Below are positions 1 to 4,331 of a stretch of 64,000 nt of DNA, piece by piece. Source of the stretch: Escherichia phage moha. Location: the sequence record MN850590.1; one strand, written 5' to 3'. Below the pieces are notes generated by a model. That model searched no databases. It was not told the DNA's origin and saw only the letters and a program-made list of their open reading frames with translations. Position 1 is the first letter of the stretch; each line of letters begins with the position of its first letter. Both the position numbers and the translations under genes were made by a program.

Positions 1-1755
1 AATGCTAATAAAGATTCTCGTGTTTTTCCAACTCAACGGGACCTTATGGCTGGTATTGTGTCTAAACACATTGCCAAAAATATGGTCCCGTCTTTTATTA
101 TGAAAGCGCATGAAAGCGGAATTATCCATTTCCACGATATTGATTATTCCCCTGCTCTTCCGTTTACTAATTGCTGTTTAGTCGATTTAAAGGGGATGCT
201 TGAGAACGGATTTAAATTAGGCAATGCTCAAATTGAAACGCCTAAATCGATTGGTGTTGCTACTGCAATTATGGCACAAATTACTGCACAAGTTGCTTCC
301 CATCAATACGGCGGAACGACTTTTGCTAATGTAGATAAAGTACTTTCTCCTTATGTTAAACGCACCTATGCAAAACATATTGAGGATGCAGAAAAATGGC
401 AAATCGCTGATGCGTTGAATTATGCTCAATCTAAAACAGAAAAAGATGTATACGATGCATTCCAAGCTTATGAATATGAAGTAAATACTCTTTTTAGTTC
501 AAACGGGCAAACGCCTTTTGTAACAATTACATTTGGTACGGGAACTGACTGGACTGAACGAATGATTCAGAAAGCAATTCTGAAAAATCGTATTAAAGGT
601 CTTGGTCGTGATGGGATAACTCCTATTTTTCCTAAACTTGTTATGTTTGTTGAAGAAGGTGTTAATCTTTATAAAGATGATCCAAACTATGATATTAAAC
701 AACTTGCGTTAGAATGTGCAAGCAAAAGAATGTATCCTGACATTATTTCGGTTAAGAATAATAAAGCTATTACCGGCTCATCTATTCCTGTTTCTCCAAT
801 GGGTTGTCGTAGTTTCTTGAGCGTATGGAAAGATTCGACTGGTAATGAAATTCTTGATGGACGTAATAATCTTGGTGTTGTAACACTGAATCTTCCTCGT
901 ATCGCATTAGATTCTTATATTGGAACCCAGTTCAATGAACAGAAATTTGTTGAATTATTCAATGAACGAATGGATTTATGTTTTGAAGCATTGATGTGCA
1001 GAATTAGTTCCTTAAAAGGAGTTAAAGCGACTGTTGCTCCTATTCTTTACCAAGAAGGTGCATTCGGGGTTCGTCTTAAACCTGATGACGACATAATTGA
1101 GTTATTTAAAAACGGTAGAAGTTCAGTGTCTTTAGGGTACATTGGTATTCACGAATTGAATATTCTTGTCGGTCGTGATATTGGGCAAGAAATTTTAACT
1201 AAAATGAATGCTCATCTTAAGCAGTGGACCGAAAGAACTGGATTTGCTTTTAGTTTATATTCTACTCCTGCTGAAAACCTTTGTTATCGCTTCTGTAAAC
1301 TCGATACAGAAAAATATGGAAGCGTAAAAGATGTTACTGATAAAGGCTGGTACACTAATAGTTTCCATGTTTCAGTAGAAGAAAATATTACTCCGTTTGA
1401 AAAGATTTCTCGTGAAGCGCCATATCATTTCATTGCGACAGGTGGTCACATTTCTTACGTTGAACTTCCTGATATGAAAAATAACCTAAAAGGTCTTGAG
1501 GCCGTGTGGGATTATGCTGCACAACATTTAGATTATTTTGGTGTTAATATGCCAGTAGATAAATGTTTTACATGCGGAAGTACCCATGAAATGACTCCTA
1601 CTGAAAACGGATTTGTTTGTTCTATTTGTGGAGAAACTGATCCTAAAAAGATGAACACAATAAGAAGAACATGCGGATATCTTGGAACTCCTAGCGTTGT
1701 TCCATGGAATTTAGGTAAAATGAAAGAAATGGTAAAACGAGTAAAACATGCATAG
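1..1755 (+). CDS. nrdD: Anaerobic ribonucleoside-triphosphate reductase NrdD (5' end outside window)
   Basis: Frame open to window edge; C-terminal glycyl-radical motif RRTCGYLG and Cys cluster CFTCGS...CSICGE; followed by nrdG as in T4. Confidence 0.9.
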   Translation, partial: NANKDSRVFPTQRDLMAGIVSKHIAKNMVPSFIMKAHESGIIHFHDIDYSPALPFTNCCLVDLKGMLENGFKLGNAQIETPKSIGVATAIMAQITAQVASHQYGGTTFANVDKVLSPYVKRTYAKHIEDAEKWQIADALNYAQSKTEKDVYDAFQAYEYEVNTLFSSNGQTPFVTITFGTGTDWTERMIQKAILKNRIKGLGRDGITPIFPKLVMFVEEGVNLYKDDPNYDIKQLALECASKRMYPDIISVKNNKAITGSSIPVSPMGCRSFLSVWKDSTGNEILDGRNNLGVVTLNLPRIALDSYIGTQFNEQKFVELFNERMDLCFEALMCRISSLKGVKATVAPILYQEGAFGVRLKPDDDIIELFKNGRSSVSLGYIGIHELNILVGRDIGQEILTKMNAHLKQWTERTGFAFSLYSTPAENLCYRFCKLDTEKYGSVKDVTDKGWYTNSFHVSVEENITPFEKISREAPYHFIATGGHISYVELPDMKNNLKGLEAVWDYAAQHLDYFGVNMPVDKCFTCGSTHEMTPTENGFVCSICGETDPKKMNTIRRTCGYLGTPSVVPWNLGKMKEMVKRVKHA

Positions 1756-2578
1756 GTATTATATAATTTATAAAATAACAAATATAATTAATTCAAAGGA
1801 ATATATCGGTGCGCATAGCACCGATAACATAAATGACGGTTATATGGGGTCAGGAACATTGATTCGTGCCGCTTTATTAAAATATGGTAGAAAAAATTTT
1901 AATAAAGAAATTTTACATGTTTTTGATAATGAAAAACAAATGTATGATAAAGAAGCTGAACTTGTAACCGAAGAGTATTGTCTAAAAGAAAATACATATA
2001 ATATTAAACCTGGTGGAAAAGGTGGAACTGCCTATGAACAGACACTTGAACATCGCCGTAAAAATAGTTTAGCAAATAAAGGTAAAAAGAGAACAGAAGA
2101 AACTAAAATAGCTATTTCACGTGCTTTAAAGAAATATAAACGTACGCCAGAGCATCAAGCAAATTTAAATAAAGCCGTAAGCATAGCTATGAAGCGAAAA
2201 GATGTTAGAAGTAAATTAGCTGGAGAGCGGTCTGAGAAAGATAAATTATCTATATCAAACGGTGTTAAAAAATATTACAATTCTTTGAGTGAAGAAGAAC
2301 GCGAACTTCATCGCAAGCGAATTATTGAAGGTAAAAAGAATTCTCCCATGTCATTGGAATCTAGACAAAAGCTTTCAAAAGCTTTAAAAGGGCTTCAAGT
2401 TGGTTCAAAAAATCCAATGTATGGAAAAATTTCTCCAACTAGCAAAACCGTTTCAGTTGACGGTATTAAATATGATTCAATTAAAAAGTGCTCAAATGCC
2501 ATAAAAGTTTCTAGACATCTTATACTAAAACGCTGTAATTCTACTGATGAAGCTTGGAAAAATTGGATATTATTATGA
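1748..2578 (+). CDS. Free-standing GIY-YIG family homing endonuclease
   Basis: N-terminal YIIYKITN...KEYIGAHS motif block, lysine-rich C-terminal half; overlaps nrdD stop (8 nt) and nrdG start (ATGA). Confidence 0.7.
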   Translation: MHRYYIIYKITNIINSKEYIGAHSTDNINDGYMGSGTLIRAALLKYGRKNFNKEILHVFDNEKQMYDKEAELVTEEYCLKENTYNIKPGGKGGTAYEQTLEHRRKNSLANKGKKRTEETKIAISRALKKYKRTPEHQANLNKAVSIAMKRKDVRSKLAGERSEKDKLSISNGVKKYYNSLSEEERELHRKRIIEGKKNSPMSLESRQKLSKALKGLQVGSKNPMYGKISPTSKTVSVDGIKYDSIKKCSNAIKVSRHLILKRCNSTDEAWKNWILL

Positions 2579-3045
2579 ATTATGATAGATTTTATCCTTG
2601 CGATTTTGTGAATGGCCCTGGTTGCAGGGTCGTTCTTTTCGTTACAGGTTGTTTGCATAAATGCGAAGGGTGTTATAATAAATCAACATGGAATGCTAGA
2701 AATGGTATTCCATTCACCGGAGAGACACTAGAACAATTAATTGAATGTTTGAATAATGATTATATAGAAGGATTGACTATAACCGGAGGTGACCCTCTCT
2801 ATCCTGATAACAGAGATGTGATTCACTCTGTGGTTCAAACTATTAAAAATCTTTATCCCAATAAAAGCATTTGGCTGTGGACAGGATATAAGTTTGAAGA
2901 TATTAAACAGCTAGAAATGCTTAAATATGTTGATGTTATTATTGATGGGAAGTATGAGAAAAATCTTCCGACTAAAAAGCTGTGGCGAGGATCAGATAAT
3001 CAGCGACTTTGGTCAAATACCGATGGGGTGTGGAAACATGATTAA
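2575..3045 (+). CDS. nrdG: Anaerobic RNR activating protein NrdG
   Basis: YPCDFVNGPG and CLHKCEGCYN (CxxxCxxC) motifs; ATG at 2575 preferred over TTG at 2554. Confidence 0.9.
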   Translation: MNYDRFYPCDFVNGPGCRVVLFVTGCLHKCEGCYNKSTWNARNGIPFTGETLEQLIECLNNDYIEGLTITGGDPLYPDNRDVIHSVVQTIKNLYPNKSIWLWTGYKFEDIKQLEMLKYVDVIIDGKYEKNLPTKKLWRGSDNQRLWSNTDGVWKHD

Positions 3046-3155
3046 ATTGAATTACATTATGGATACTATAAATGATATGATTTTTCGTTTTGGTCCAGAA
3101 TTTTATTCGCAATATAGTTTAATGATTATCAATGCTTAGTTAATTAAGGGTAAAT

Positions 3156-3371
3156 ATGTACAAATTTCGTAAAGGTTTAGCTGATTTTCTTACAACTGTA
3201 ACGTTCTTTTTGTTTATGGCAGTTGGAGCTATTTTTCTTATTCCTTTTACTGGTGTATTTTTCGTGATTAGTTTAATTTCTCCAGAAAAGGGTTTATCCT
3301 CCAGCGAATTCAATGAACGTTTGGACAAAATTACTAATAAACTGAATTCTGTTCTTGATAAAAAGGCTTAA
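3156..3371 (+). CDS. Hypothetical small membrane protein
   Basis: 71-aa ORF with one hydrophobic helix, AAGGG RBS. Confidence 0.45.
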   Translation: MYKFRKGLADFLTTVTFFLFMAVGAIFLIPFTGVFFVISLISPEKGLSSSEFNERLDKITNKLNSVLDKKA

Positions 3372-3373
3372 TT

Positions 3374-3691
3374 ATGATTAGTTTTGAGCGGTATGTAGTA
3401 GAGAGTTGGAATGGTTTTGATATGTTCGGTAATGACTATTATTTCTATGAATGTAGTCTGAACCCAAGCTTCTGGGCTGGACGTGAACAAGACCTCGAAG
3501 AAATCAACGCCCGTGCCGATTTGTTAGGTGAACTGCCTACGGTTTATTTTACCTTTGATGAATCCGGCTTCGTTATCCAGGTTTATTTTCCTGAAGAAAA
3601 CTCTGGTGAGGATTCTGTTAATCCTCCTTATTGGGCTTACCAAGGAATTATTTCTCGTGGAACAAAACTCGAACTTAAAGAACAAGATTGA
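3374..3691 (+). CDS. Hypothetical acidic protein
   Basis: 105-aa ORF, start overlaps upstream stop. Confidence 0.5.
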   Translation: MISFERYVVESWNGFDMFGNDYYFYECSLNPSFWAGREQDLEEINARADLLGELPTVYFTFDESGFVIQVYFPEENSGEDSVNPPYWAYQGIISRGTKLELKEQD

Positions 3692-3980
3692 AATTTATGG
3701 CATCCCTGAAGAAGTTGGACGTTGTCCAGGATGTTATACTGTTACAAAACTTTTAAAGGAGCTCAATGCTCCTTATACATTTTATAAAGTCCTCACTAAT
3801 AATGGTAAGATTGAATATGACCGTCCTTTAATCGTATCTCTTGCTAAACGTGCAGGATTCACTTCACTTAATATTCGTTATCCTGTCATATTTTTAAATG
3901 ATAAGAAACAAAAGAATATTGCAGAGTTTAAAAAGTCCTTGATTTCATTAGGATATGACTCTGATATCATAGAAGATTGA
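3657..3980 (+). CDS. nrdH: Glutaredoxin/NrdH-like redoxin
   Basis: CPGCY active-site motif after predicted beta-strand IEIYG; no in-frame ATG, probable GTG start at 3657 preceded by AAGGA; terminator follows. Confidence 0.55.
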   Translation: MEQNSNLKNKIEIYGIPEEVGRCPGCYTVTKLLKELNAPYTFYKVLTNNGKIEYDRPLIVSLAKRAGFTSLNIRYPVIFLNDKKQKNIAEFKKSLISLGYDSDIIED

Positions 3981-4003
3981 CCAGGTGCCGCCTGGTCTTC
4001 TTT
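3979..4003 (+). terminator. Intrinsic terminator after nrdH-like gene
   Basis: GACCAGG-tgccg-CCTGGTC stem followed by TTCTTTA. Confidence 0.5.
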
Positions 4004-4148
4004 ATCTCATTTCTAATATAATCCATTGGAATCTTCACTTCACTATCTCCTTGTGCCCCTCTCAAATCAAAAAAATATTTTCATAAAACAGTTTACATCC
4101 TCGATAGATATGTTAAGATTAACACCATCTACCGCAGAGGAAAATAAA

Positions 4149-4331
4149 ATGACAATTGAAGATAAAGAAATTAAGGTTGACCAGTACTATTCTGTCAATG
4201 GTAATGCCATACAGATAACCAGAGTTTCAAGCCTGGATGTTTGGTACCGTTCAATCAAATATCCAGAAATTGGTGAAATGCTTTGTGACCGTGGTATCTT
4301 CTGTTCAATTGCGAAGGAAATTAAGTCATGA
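4149..4331 (+). CDS. Hypothetical protein
   Basis: Internal ATG with AGAGGA RBS in ORF 4026-4331. Confidence 0.35.
   Translation: MTIEDKEIKVDQYYSVNGNAIQITRVSSLDVWYRSIKYPEIGEMLCDRGIFCSIAKEIKS

What the first reader, a model, noticed from the sequence alone, without database searches (positions are those of the whole stretch)
3374..3980. NrdH-like redoxin has no in-frame ATG; probable GTG start overlapping the upstream gene
The CPGCY redoxin domain begins about 10 codons after an in-frame GTG at 3657 with an AAGGA RBS, 35 nt inside the end of ORF 3374-3691. The in-frame ATG at 3528 would add about 50 non-homologous residues. This is either a GTG start with coupling or a programmed frameshift fusing the two ORFs.
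Basis: seen in the sequence. Interest (0 to 1): 0.4.

Follow-up and report, generated by a model that had tools for sequence, protein, structure and literature searches.

The report
Phage glutaredoxin gene with GTG start
This is the T4-type phage glutaredoxin gene nrdH, which starts at a GTG codon lying inside the end of the gene before it; the T4 reference genome and most related phage records already annotate it this way, so the finding is ordinary.

Summary
The window is a T4-like coliphage (99% identical to JK45, APCEc01 and PhAPEC2). The region reads nrdD, homing endonuclease, nrdG, 55.8, a 105-aa gene of the RB69ORF082c family (3374-3691), nrdH (3657-3980), then a terminator.

**What checks out.** One detail is wrong: 3528 is GTG, not ATG. 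The only upstream in-frame ATG is at 3558.

**Why GTG 3657 is the start.**
- T4 nrdH itself is annotated with a homologous GTG (AAGGAAT...GTG.AACAAAA).
- In six lineages the nrdH frame opens only 6-30 nt before that GTG, and GTG is the only ATG/GTG/TTG available.
- Upstream of 3657, 28 of 33 substitutions fall on the third codon position of the upstream gene, which is the second position of the nrdH frame.
- GTG 3657 has the best Shine-Dalgarno pairing of the ATG/GTG/TTG candidates, and its surroundings are unstructured.

**Why not a frameshift.** A fusion would need a +1 shift. There is no conserved slip site, the upstream stop codon moves between lineages, the one apparent fusion is a superseded assembly, and NrdH stands alone in T4.

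**Verdict.** Already known, low interest.

The parts
3156..3371 (+). Gene 55.8 homolog (71-aa predicted membrane protein), immediately upstream of the ORF pair
   Evidence: ORF list. phrog_1930, E 1.9e-35. Annotated gp55.8 in PhAPEC2 and RB51.
3374..3691 (+). RB69ORF082c-family gene, 105 aa, function unknown. Its last 12 codons carry the nrdH ribosome-binding site and start codon.
   Evidence: phrog_2749, E 1.1e-49, no Pfam hit. 526 phage records by tblastn. Substitutions fall on its third codon position, 28 of 33. Homologs are 88-105 aa.
3642..3646 (+). Shine-Dalgarno AAGGA for nrdH, encoded by the Gln-Gly codons of the upstream gene
   Evidence: Sequence. Duplex energy -5.4 kcal/mol with the 16S 3' end. 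Conserved as AAGGA(A/G) or GAAGGTGG in all ORF082c-bearing lineages.
3657..3659 (+). GTG initiation codon of nrdH. It spans the Arg-Gly codons (cGT Gga) of the upstream gene.
   Evidence: Homologous GTG is the annotated T4 nrdH start. It is the only possible ATG/GTG/TTG start in RZ, SHP1, L008 and T4/T2. It is the annotated start in JK45, APCEc01 and RB51.
3657..3691 (+). 35-nt dual-coding overlap of ORF082c (frame 2) and nrdH (frame 0)
   Evidence: Only one substitution against Tequatrovirus relatives (3683 C>T). It is synonymous in nrdH and creates TAA in ORF082c.
3657..3980 (+). nrdH: 107-aa T4-type glutaredoxin-fold protein (stop TGA at 3978-3980)
   Evidence: 86-87% identical to T4 NrdH. 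phrog_22 thioredoxin domain. AlphaFold model pLDDT 81.6. Foldseek top hits are glutaredoxins, with T4 glutaredoxin at TM 0.81.
3723..3734 (+). CPGC active-site motif (codons 23-26)
   Evidence: Translation. C23, G25 and C26 are invariant in 15 homologs. The motif sits at the start of helix 24-35 in the model.
3979..4007 (+). Intrinsic terminator-like hairpin plus T-tract directly after the nrdH stop, marking the end of the nrdD-nrdG-55.8-ORF082c-nrdH transcription unit
   Evidence: Terminator scan. Annotated as a terminator in PhAPEC2.
3528..3656 (+). Open but non-coding stretch of the nrdH frame (GTG 3528, TTG 3555, ATG 3558, GTG 3606). These are the rejected alternative starts.
   Evidence: Differences from relatives fall on the second codon position of this frame. 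The frame is closed 6-30 nt before the GTG in RZ, L008 and SHP1. SD pairing is weak, +0.3 to -2.4 kcal/mol.

Best explanation
Window 3657-3980 is the phage gene nrdH. It encodes a T4-type glutaredoxin-fold protein with a CPGC active site and is a paralog of T4 glutaredoxin NrdC. It is the last gene of the anaerobic ribonucleotide reductase transcription unit.

Translation starts at GUG 3657. A 30S subunit binds the AAGGA Shine-Dalgarno at 3642-3646. Both signals lie inside the last 12 codons of the preceding gene (RB69ORF082c family, 3374-3691), so the two genes overlap by 35 nt in different frames.

The start is GUG rather than AUG because it is written across the conserved Ser-Arg/Cys-Gly codons (cGT Gga or tGT Ggg) of the upstream protein's C-terminal motif. 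An AUG there would change that motif.

Ribosomes finishing the upstream gene pass over the nrdH start and terminate 17-32 nt downstream. They may therefore enhance nrdH initiation by coupling or re-initiation, but this step is inferred. T4 and T2 lack the upstream gene yet keep the same AAGGAAT...GTG.AACAAAA start, most simply as a relic of this arrangement.

Shown here: gene identities, the homologous GTG, exclusion of longer forms by relatives, and the fold. Inferred: the actual N-terminus in vivo, coupling, and the direction of the T4 indel.
For: - **Existing annotation.** T4 nrdH (NP_049686, 102 aa) starts at GTG preceded by AAGGAAT. The window aligns to it as AAGGAAT..GTG[G/A]AACAAAA[C/T] plus a 15-nt insert. 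JK45, APCEc01 and RB51 annotate the start at the equivalent of 3657.
- **Longer forms excluded.** In RZ, IMG/VR L008, SHP1, T4 and T2 the nrdH frame opens 6-30 nt before the GTG, and GTG is the sole ATG/GTG/TTG. Two further metagenomic lineages show the same SD plus GTG.
- **Substitution pattern against Tequatrovirus relatives.** In 3374-3656, 28 of 33 differences fall on the third position of the ORF082c frame, which is the second position of the nrdH frame. The overlap has 1 difference. In 3692-3980, 40 of 60 fall on the third position of the nrdH frame.
- **Ribosome binding.** SD pairing is -5.4 kcal/mol at 3657, against -2.4 at ATG 3558 and +0.3 at GTG 3528.
- **Accessibility.** Region 3625-3725 folds no better than shuffles (z = +1.46).
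- **N-terminus position.** Distant genera without ORF082c start with ATG right at M(K)IEIYG. So the N-terminus lies 1-10 residues before beta-1 everywhere.
- **Fold.** Model residues 1-7 are disordered, beta-1 is 11-15, and the fold is glutaredoxin.
Against: - There is no direct protein or ribosome data for this phage or for T4 NrdH's N-terminus, and I found none in the paper library.
- The 10-nt SD-to-start spacer is on the long side.
- Conservation of the GTG and of the first codons (E/D-Q-N) inside the overlap could partly reflect selection on the upstream protein rather than on nrdH.
- The frame stays open upstream in the window itself, so a minor longer isoform cannot be formally excluded.
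- One public record (PhAPEC2) annotates the ATG-3558 form.
Confidence: 0.9

Rival explanations
1. nrdH starts further upstream in the same frame, at ATG 3558 (140 aa, as annotated in PhAPEC2) or GTG 3528 (150 aa). This would give a hydrophobic N-terminal extension encoded entirely within ORF082c.
For: The frame is open from 3528, and an ATG exists at 3558. PhAPEC2 annotates that start. Some records label the whole region only 'glutaredoxin' (H117 and H118).
Against: - Substitutions in 3374-3656 hit the second codon position of this frame in 28 of 33 cases, so the extension is not conserved as protein.
- In-frame stops lie 6-30 nt before the GTG in RZ, L008, SHP1 and T4.
- SD pairing is only -2.4 and +0.3 kcal/mol.
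- No homolog has such an extension.
Confidence: 0.03
2. A programmed +1 (or -2) ribosomal frameshift near the end of ORF082c fuses it to the redoxin, giving a protein of about 200 aa.
For: The two ORFs overlap by 35 nt and an SD-like AAGGA lies upstream, as in some recoding sites. Frame-2 AAA codons at 3665 and 3677 could in principle re-pair.
Against: - A -1 shift cannot reach the nrdH frame.
- There is no CUU-UGA-C type site, no homopolymer of 5 or more, and no X XXY YYZ heptamer.
- The ORF082c stop is TGA or TAA and sits 17 to 32 nt after the GTG in different lineages.
- ORF082c homologs are all 88-105 aa, apart from one spurious repeat protein, and none carries a Grx domain.
- The single long 'fusion' in the databases (P0013) joins gp55.8, not ORF082c. 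It comes from a superseded record version.
- NrdH is free-standing in T4/T2 and in many genera.
- No Rfam element was found.
Confidence: 0.01
3. Initiation or re-initiation occurs at a non-canonical codon closer to the fold (AUU 3687 or 3693) after termination of ORF082c at 3689-3691. The GTG would be conserved only because of the upstream protein.
For: The ORF082c stop (TGA 3689-3691) overlaps the ATT GAA ATT codons at the start of beta-1. The GTG and SD are dual-coded, so their conservation is not independent evidence in overlap-bearing phages.
Against: - No SD is available for these codons (-0.9 kcal/mol).
- T4/T2 have no upstream overlapping gene yet keep GTG-AAA-CAA-AAT. There GTG is the only start-type codon, and the one variant seen (AAT to AAC) is synonymous.
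- The ORF082c stop position is not fixed relative to the IEIYG codons.
Confidence: 0.04

Closest known systems
Bacteriophage T4 nrdH (NP_049686, 'NrdH glutaredoxin')
   Same: 86-87% amino-acid identity over residues 8-107. Same position after nrdD-nrdG-55.8 and before 55.6. Same CPGC motif. Same GTG start with an AAGGAAT Shine-Dalgarno and the same first codons (x-Q-N).
   Different: T4 has no ORF082c gene, so its nrdH does not overlap an upstream gene and follows the 55.8 stop by 2 nt. The window protein has 5 extra N-terminal residues (SNLKN) and a 10-nt rather than 6-nt SD spacer.
nrdH of RB51, AR1, JK45 and APCEc01 (ORF082c-bearing Tequatrovirus and Mosigvirus records)
   Same: Identical architecture: ORF082c overlapping nrdH, with the GTG start annotated at the equivalent of 3657.
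   Different: The overlap is 29 nt in RB51-type phages, where 3683 C>T makes an earlier TAA, against 35 nt here. The nrdH body is only 79% identical in DNA while ORF082c is 98% identical.
T4 glutaredoxin/thioredoxin NrdC (PDB 1ABA, 1AAZ)
   Same: Closest solved structure by sequence (E 0.01, residues 12-83 aligned to 3-73) and by fold (TM 0.81, rmsd 2.2 A). CxxC lies after beta-1, and the conserved Pro precedes beta-3.
   Different: Only 17-20% identity. The active site is CPGC, where NrdC has CVYC. The window protein has a C-terminal extension of about 20 residues and an N-terminal tail of about 9. The genomic neighbourhood is different (class III rather than class Ia RNR genes).
Bacterial NrdH-redoxin (E. 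coli NrdH, PDB 1H75; class Ib RNR electron donor)
   Same: Small glutaredoxin-fold CxxC protein encoded next to ribonucleotide reductase genes. It shares the gene name.
   Different: No sequence-level hit (PDB phmmer or NCBIfam at E<=1). It ranks only 19th in the fold search. The window has CPGC; from my own knowledge, bacterial NrdH has CVQC. The neighbours are nrdDG rather than nrdIEF.
Overlapping-gene translational coupling in T4-type and other phage operons
   Same: The downstream SD and start codon are embedded in the 3' end of the upstream ORF on one polycistronic mRNA.
   Different: The 35-nt overlap is longer than the common ATGA or TAATG 1-4-nt overlaps. Coupling itself was not tested, and the start region looks accessible on its own.

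Membership tests
T4-type NrdH (Tevenvirinae nrdH gene family, phrog_22) | High sequence similarity to T4 NrdH across the whole protein | tested here: met
   tblastn gives 86% identity to T4/T2 over residues 8-107, with 1351 phage records matching. phrog_22, E 1.2e-15.
T4-type NrdH (Tevenvirinae nrdH gene family, phrog_22) | Synteny: downstream of nrdD-nrdG-55.8 and upstream of 55.6...55 | tested here: met
   Window ORFs and Pfam hits. T4 map. JK45, RB51 and PhAPEC2 maps.
Glutaredoxin / thioredoxin-fold thiol-disulfide oxidoreductases (Pfam PF00462) | CxxC motif at the N-terminus of helix 1, directly after beta-1 | tested here: met
   CPGC at residues 23-26. The model has beta-1 at 11-15 and a helix at 24-35. 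C23 and C26 are invariant in 15 homologs.
Glutaredoxin / thioredoxin-fold thiol-disulfide oxidoreductases (Pfam PF00462) | Conserved (cis-)proline before beta-3 | tested here: met
   R74-Y75-P76 is invariant. P76 aligns with the Pro of 'TMPQVF' in T4 glutaredoxin 1ABA. Strand 77-80 follows it in the model. The cis conformation itself is not testable here.
Glutaredoxin / thioredoxin-fold thiol-disulfide oxidoreductases (Pfam PF00462) | Score above Pfam's gathering threshold | tested here: not met
   21.0 bits against a cut-off of 22.9. Relative P0027 passes with 26.1 bits. This is a divergent member by sequence.
Glutaredoxin / thioredoxin-fold thiol-disulfide oxidoreductases (Pfam PF00462) | Glutaredoxin three-dimensional fold | tested here: met
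   The AlphaFold model has pLDDT 81.6. The top 20 Foldseek PDB hits are glutaredoxins or glutaredoxin-like redoxins. T4 glutaredoxin gives TM 0.81 and rmsd 2.2 A.
Glutaredoxin / thioredoxin-fold thiol-disulfide oxidoreductases (Pfam PF00462) | Glutathione- or reductase-dependent disulfide reductase activity | not testable with these tools
   Only the T4 record's note 'has glutaredoxin activity'. No primary paper was found in the library.
Bacterial NrdH-redoxin (class Ib RNR reductant, TIGR02194) | Match to the NrdH family model or to solved NrdH sequences | tested here: not met
   NCBIfam gives no GlrX_NrdH hit at E<=1, only YruB at 13.6 bits. PDB phmmer at E<=1 finds T4 glutaredoxin but no NrdH.
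Bacterial NrdH-redoxin (class Ib RNR reductant, TIGR02194) | Genomic association with nrdI-nrdE-nrdF | tested here: not met
   The neighbours are the class III genes nrdD and nrdG.
Programmed +1 ribosomal frameshift (prfB type) | Conserved slippery codon next to a poorly decoded or stop codon, with an SD about 3 nt upstream | tested here: not met
   No such motif in 3528-3691. AAGGA lies 10 nt before the GTG and 42 nt before the stop. The stop position and identity vary between lineages.
Programmed +1 ribosomal frameshift (prfB type) | Downstream ORF lacks its own start, and in-frame fused versions exist in relatives | tested here: not met
   The downstream ORF has a conserved SD plus GTG. No ORF082c-Grx fusions were found. 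NrdH stands alone in T4.
Translationally coupled overlapping gene pair | Downstream SD and start codon lie inside the upstream ORF on the same strand, with no intervening terminator or promoter | tested here: met
   Sequence. No good promoter or terminator between 3374 and 3657. The only strong terminator is at 3979-3997.
Translationally coupled overlapping gene pair | Downstream translation depends on upstream translation | not testable with these tools
   This needs a premature-stop mutant of ORF082c. The start region is unstructured, so dependence is not predicted from RNA folding.

The most novel reading that the evidence does not exclude
The nrdH ribosome-binding site and GUG are hard-wired into the conserved C-terminal motif (W-x-Y-Q/E-G-x-I-S/T-R/C-G) of the unknown-function ORF082c protein across at least five genera. 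This could mean obligatory coupled, fixed-ratio synthesis because ORF082c is a functional partner of the phage redoxin, for example a substrate, adaptor or regulator linked to anaerobic nucleotide reduction. On this reading the weak GUG start is a selected expression-setting device rather than a by-product of the overlap.
Probability: 0.12. Interest if true: 0.35.

Novelty: already known. Interest (0 to 1): 0.08.

Why it matters
It matters little beyond annotation hygiene.

- It confirms that the 107-aa GTG-started form is the right gene model.
- Records that use the upstream ATG (for example the 140-aa PhAPEC2 product), or that drop ORF082c, are probably mis-annotated.
- It offers a tidy explanation for why T4 nrdH carries a GTG start: a start codon written across Arg/Cys-Gly codons of a neighbouring gene that T4 itself no longer has.
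- The biological roles of T4-type NrdH and of ORF082c remain unknown. This analysis does not open a new route to them.

Tried and rejected
- **Frameshift scan.** Slippery-site, homopolymer and heptamer scan of 3528-3691 and an Rfam scan of 3000-4300: nothing supporting recoding.
- **Natural fusions.** A word-index search and a full HMMER search of 1.84 billion representatives with ORF082c found only 88-105-aa proteins, plus one spurious 802-aa low-complexity repeat protein (P0007).
- **A lead that failed.** The NrdH search returned a 173-aa 'glutaredoxin' (P0013, UFV-AREG1) that looked like a gp55.8::NrdH fusion. The current GenBank version KX009778.4 has three separate genes with new protein ids. 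I therefore treat P0013 as an artefact of an earlier assembly. A tblastn with the junction peptide was uninformative because pieces were joined across ORF082c.
- **Function of ORF082c.** No hits in Pfam, NCBIfam or PADLOC. The PHROG has unknown function. The profile against PDB gave nothing. The single-sequence AlphaFold model was too poor to search (pLDDT 51).
- **Sequestering hairpin.** I tested whether a hairpin hides the nrdH start and would enforce coupling. The region is less structured than shuffles.
- **Literature.** I found no paper on the T4 NrdH N-terminus or on initiation-site profiling of T4. The T4 genome review is not held.
- **IMG/VR scan.** It returned only 9 close loci, so diversity was sampled from GenBank phage records instead.

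Full report
**What the window is**

The 1-kb region around the finding is 99% identical to T4-like coliphages such as JK45, APCEc01 and PhAPEC2, and 656 phage records match it at megablast level. ORF listing and Pfam scans give the following gene order:

- nrdD (46-1755)
- a NUMOD3 / I-TevI-type homing endonuclease ORF (1748-2578)
- nrdG (2575-3045)
- a gp55.8 homolog (3156-3371)
- a 105-aa ORF (3374-3691)
- the redoxin ORF, ending at 3980
- further on, the late sigma factor gp55

This matches the T4 map nrdD-mobC-nrdG-55.8-nrdH-55.6...55. The one difference is that T4 has no gene between 55.8 and nrdH.

**Checking the observation**

- GTG at 3657-3659.
- AAGGA at 3642-3646, with a 10-nt spacer.
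- The stop of the upstream ORF at 3689-3691, giving a 35-nt overlap.
- CPGC at codons 23-26.

The structured domain begins at about codon 10-11. Residues 12-83 align to residues 3-73 of T4 glutaredoxin. In the AlphaFold model residues 1-7 are disordered and beta-1 spans 11-15.

One detail is wrong. Position 3528 is GTG, not ATG. The only upstream in-frame ATG is at 3558, so 'no in-frame ATG' is imprecise.

The upstream ORF is in frame 2 and the redoxin in frame 0. A fusion would therefore need a +1 or -2 shift, not a -1 shift.

**Existing annotation**

- T4 nrdH (NP_049686, 102 aa) starts at a GTG: aaggaatagttGTGaaacaaaataagattgaagtctatgg.
- The window reads aaggaattatttctcGTGgaacaaaactcgaacttaaagaacaagattgaaatttatgg. 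The SD, the GTG and the following AACAAAA are homologous, with a 15-nt (5-codon) insert.
- JK45, APCEc01 and RB51 annotate nrdH from the equivalent of 3657 (324 nt, overlapping the upstream ORF).
- PhAPEC2 uses the ATG at 3558.

**Comparative test of the start**

I collected 31 related loci and compared the nrdH junction in 28 plus the window in one script; two more were read by eye.

- **Conservation.** Every lineage that carries the upstream gene has the same arrangement. These are Mosigvirus, RB51-type Tequatrovirus, Gaprivervirus, Dhakavirus, Kanagawavirus and two metagenomic lineages. Each has an in-frame GTG 17-22 codons before the CxxC, preceded 8-10 nt upstream by AAGGA(A/G) or GAAGGTGG.
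- **Longer forms excluded.** In RZ and IMG/VR locus L008 the nrdH frame opens only 6 nt before the GTG. In SHP1 it opens 30 nt before, and in T4/T2 9 nt before. In each of these GTG is the only ATG/GTG/TTG available, so longer forms are impossible there.
- **Distant genera.** Genera without the upstream gene use ATG directly at M(K)IEIYG. These are Jiaodavirus, Krischvirus, Slopekvirus, Pseudotevenvirus, Gelderlandvirus, Lazarusvirus and phage Ursula.

**Substitution pattern**

The comparison is against Tequatrovirus relatives that share the arrangement.

| Region | Differences | Where they fall |
|---|---|---|
| 3374-3656 | 33 | 28 on the third position of the upstream ORF's frame, which is the second position of the nrdH frame |
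| 3657-3691 (overlap) | 1 | 3683 C>T, synonymous in nrdH, creates an earlier TAA in the upstream ORF |
| 3692-3980 | 60 | 40 on the third position of the nrdH frame |

Frame 0 is therefore coding only from about 3657 onward.

**Initiation signals**

Among in-frame ATG/GTG/TTG codons, 3657 has the best anti-SD pairing:

- GTG 3657: -5.4 kcal/mol, in the top 7% of background positions.
- ATG 3558: -2.4 kcal/mol.
- GTG 3528: +0.3 kcal/mol.

Region 3625-3725 folds less stably than 191 of 200 shuffles (z = +1.46). The start is therefore accessible rather than sequestered. A terminator-like hairpin with a T-tract follows the nrdH stop at 3979-3997 (annotated in PhAPEC2).

**Why GTG**

The upstream protein family has a conserved C-terminal motif, W-x-Y-Q/E-G-x-I-S/T-R/C-G. 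The Gln/Glu-Gly codons spell the SD. The Arg/Cys-Gly codons (cGT Gga or tGT Ggg) spell the GTG. An ATG at that place would change the motif.

T4 and T2 lack the upstream gene but retain the AAGGAAT...GTG.AACAAAA module directly after 55.8. The simplest explanation is that this module is left over from the overlapping arrangement. This is an inference, and the direction of the indel was not established.

**Frameshift hypothesis**

- Region 3528-3691 has no prfB-like site, no homopolymer of 5 or more, and no X XXY YYZ heptamer. There is no Rfam hit.
- The upstream stop is TGA or TAA and lies 17 to 32 nt after the GTG in different lineages.
- Homologs of the upstream protein are 88-105 aa in both protein searches. 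The sole exception, P0007, is a spurious low-complexity repeat protein.
- One 173-aa 'glutaredoxin' (P0013, UFV-AREG1) looked like a gp55.8::NrdH fusion. The current record version has three separate genes, so it is an artefact of an earlier assembly.
- NrdH is free-standing in T4/T2 and in many genera.

The frameshift reading is rejected.

**What the proteins are**

*NrdH.*
- It matches phrog_22, 'thioredoxin domain'.
- It scores just below Pfam's glutaredoxin cut-off, 21.0 against 22.9 bits.
- Its closest solved relative is T4 glutaredoxin NrdC, both by sequence and by fold (TM 0.81, rmsd 2.2 A).
- It does not match the bacterial NrdH-redoxin family model or solved NrdH sequences. E. coli NrdH ranks 19th in the fold search.
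- 'NrdH' here is therefore the T4 gene name, not membership of the class Ib NrdH-redoxin family.

*The upstream gene.* It belongs to phrog_2749 (unknown function) and has no Pfam, NCBIfam, PADLOC or PDB relatives. The single-sequence structure model was too poor to use.

**Verdict**

The GTG-start reading is correct. Coupling is plausible but untested. The frameshift is not supported. The feature is already represented in the T4 reference annotation and in most related records, so this is an ordinary, known gene arrangement of low interest.

Noticed in passing
window 3374-3980, compared with RB51 (L006): Sharp mosaic boundary at the gene overlap. The upstream gene differs from RB51 at 5 of 283 nt (98% identity). 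nrdH differs at 60 of 289 nt (79%). This suggests a recombination breakpoint at or near the shared AAGGAAT...GTG module.
   Followed up: partly
L004 (T4) 2100-2130 and L005 (T2), compared with window 3640-3700: T4 and T2 lack the ORF082c gene but keep AAGGAAT, GTG and AACAAAA directly after the 55.8 stop. Their GTG start looks like a relic of the overlapping arrangement. The window has 5 extra codons (SNLKN) after Q-N.
   Followed up: partly
P0013 (UniRef A0A173GA59, phage UFV-AREG1); L029 2829-3653: A 173-aa 'glutaredoxin' in the protein databases is a gp55.8::NrdH fusion that skips ORF082c. The current GenBank version KX009778.4 has three separate genes, so the fusion is a stale product of an earlier assembly.
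   Followed up: yes
L003 (PhAPEC2, KF562341) 759-1181, equal to window 3558-3980; also H117 and H118: Some public records start nrdH at the upstream ATG (140 aa) or annotate only a 'glutaredoxin' over the ORF082c region. By the comparative evidence here these are probably mis-annotations.
   Followed up: partly
window 1748-2578 (+): A 276-aa free-standing homing-endonuclease-like ORF sits between nrdD and nrdG and overlaps both ends. It has a NUMOD3 motif and an I-TevI DNA-binding domain. JK45 has no gene there (its nrdD and nrdG overlap), and T4 has the HNH endonuclease mobC at the same junction.
   Followed up: partly
window 3374-3691; alignment A2: The ORF082c family is small. A search of 1.84 billion representatives gave 6 hits, one of them a spurious repeat protein, and the rest are 88-105 aa. 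It has invariant F4, W12, D16, F24, L29 and F61 and a conserved C-terminal W-x-Y-Q/E-G-x-I-S-R/C-G. No function or structural relative was found.
   Followed up: partly
window 3756-3774 (+): A terminator-like hairpin AAGGAGCTCAATGCTCCTT lies inside the nrdH coding region (codons K-E-L-N-A-P). The same sequence is present in T4 nrdH. It may be only a coding coincidence.
   Followed up: no
window 4092-4119 (+): Promoter-like TTTACA-16 nt-TAAGAT with a TG extension lies in the 170-nt gap after the nrdH terminator and ahead of the 55.6-like ORF. It resembles a T4 early promoter.
   Followed up: no
L008 (IMGVR_UViG_3300029310_000132) 1-60: A metagenomic contig carries a window-type nrdH (98% identity) but a Gaprivervirus-type junction (gtaatttcctGTGggtcaaaac) and a shorter N-terminus (MGQNLIEIYG). 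This is another sign of recombination at this junction.
   Followed up: no
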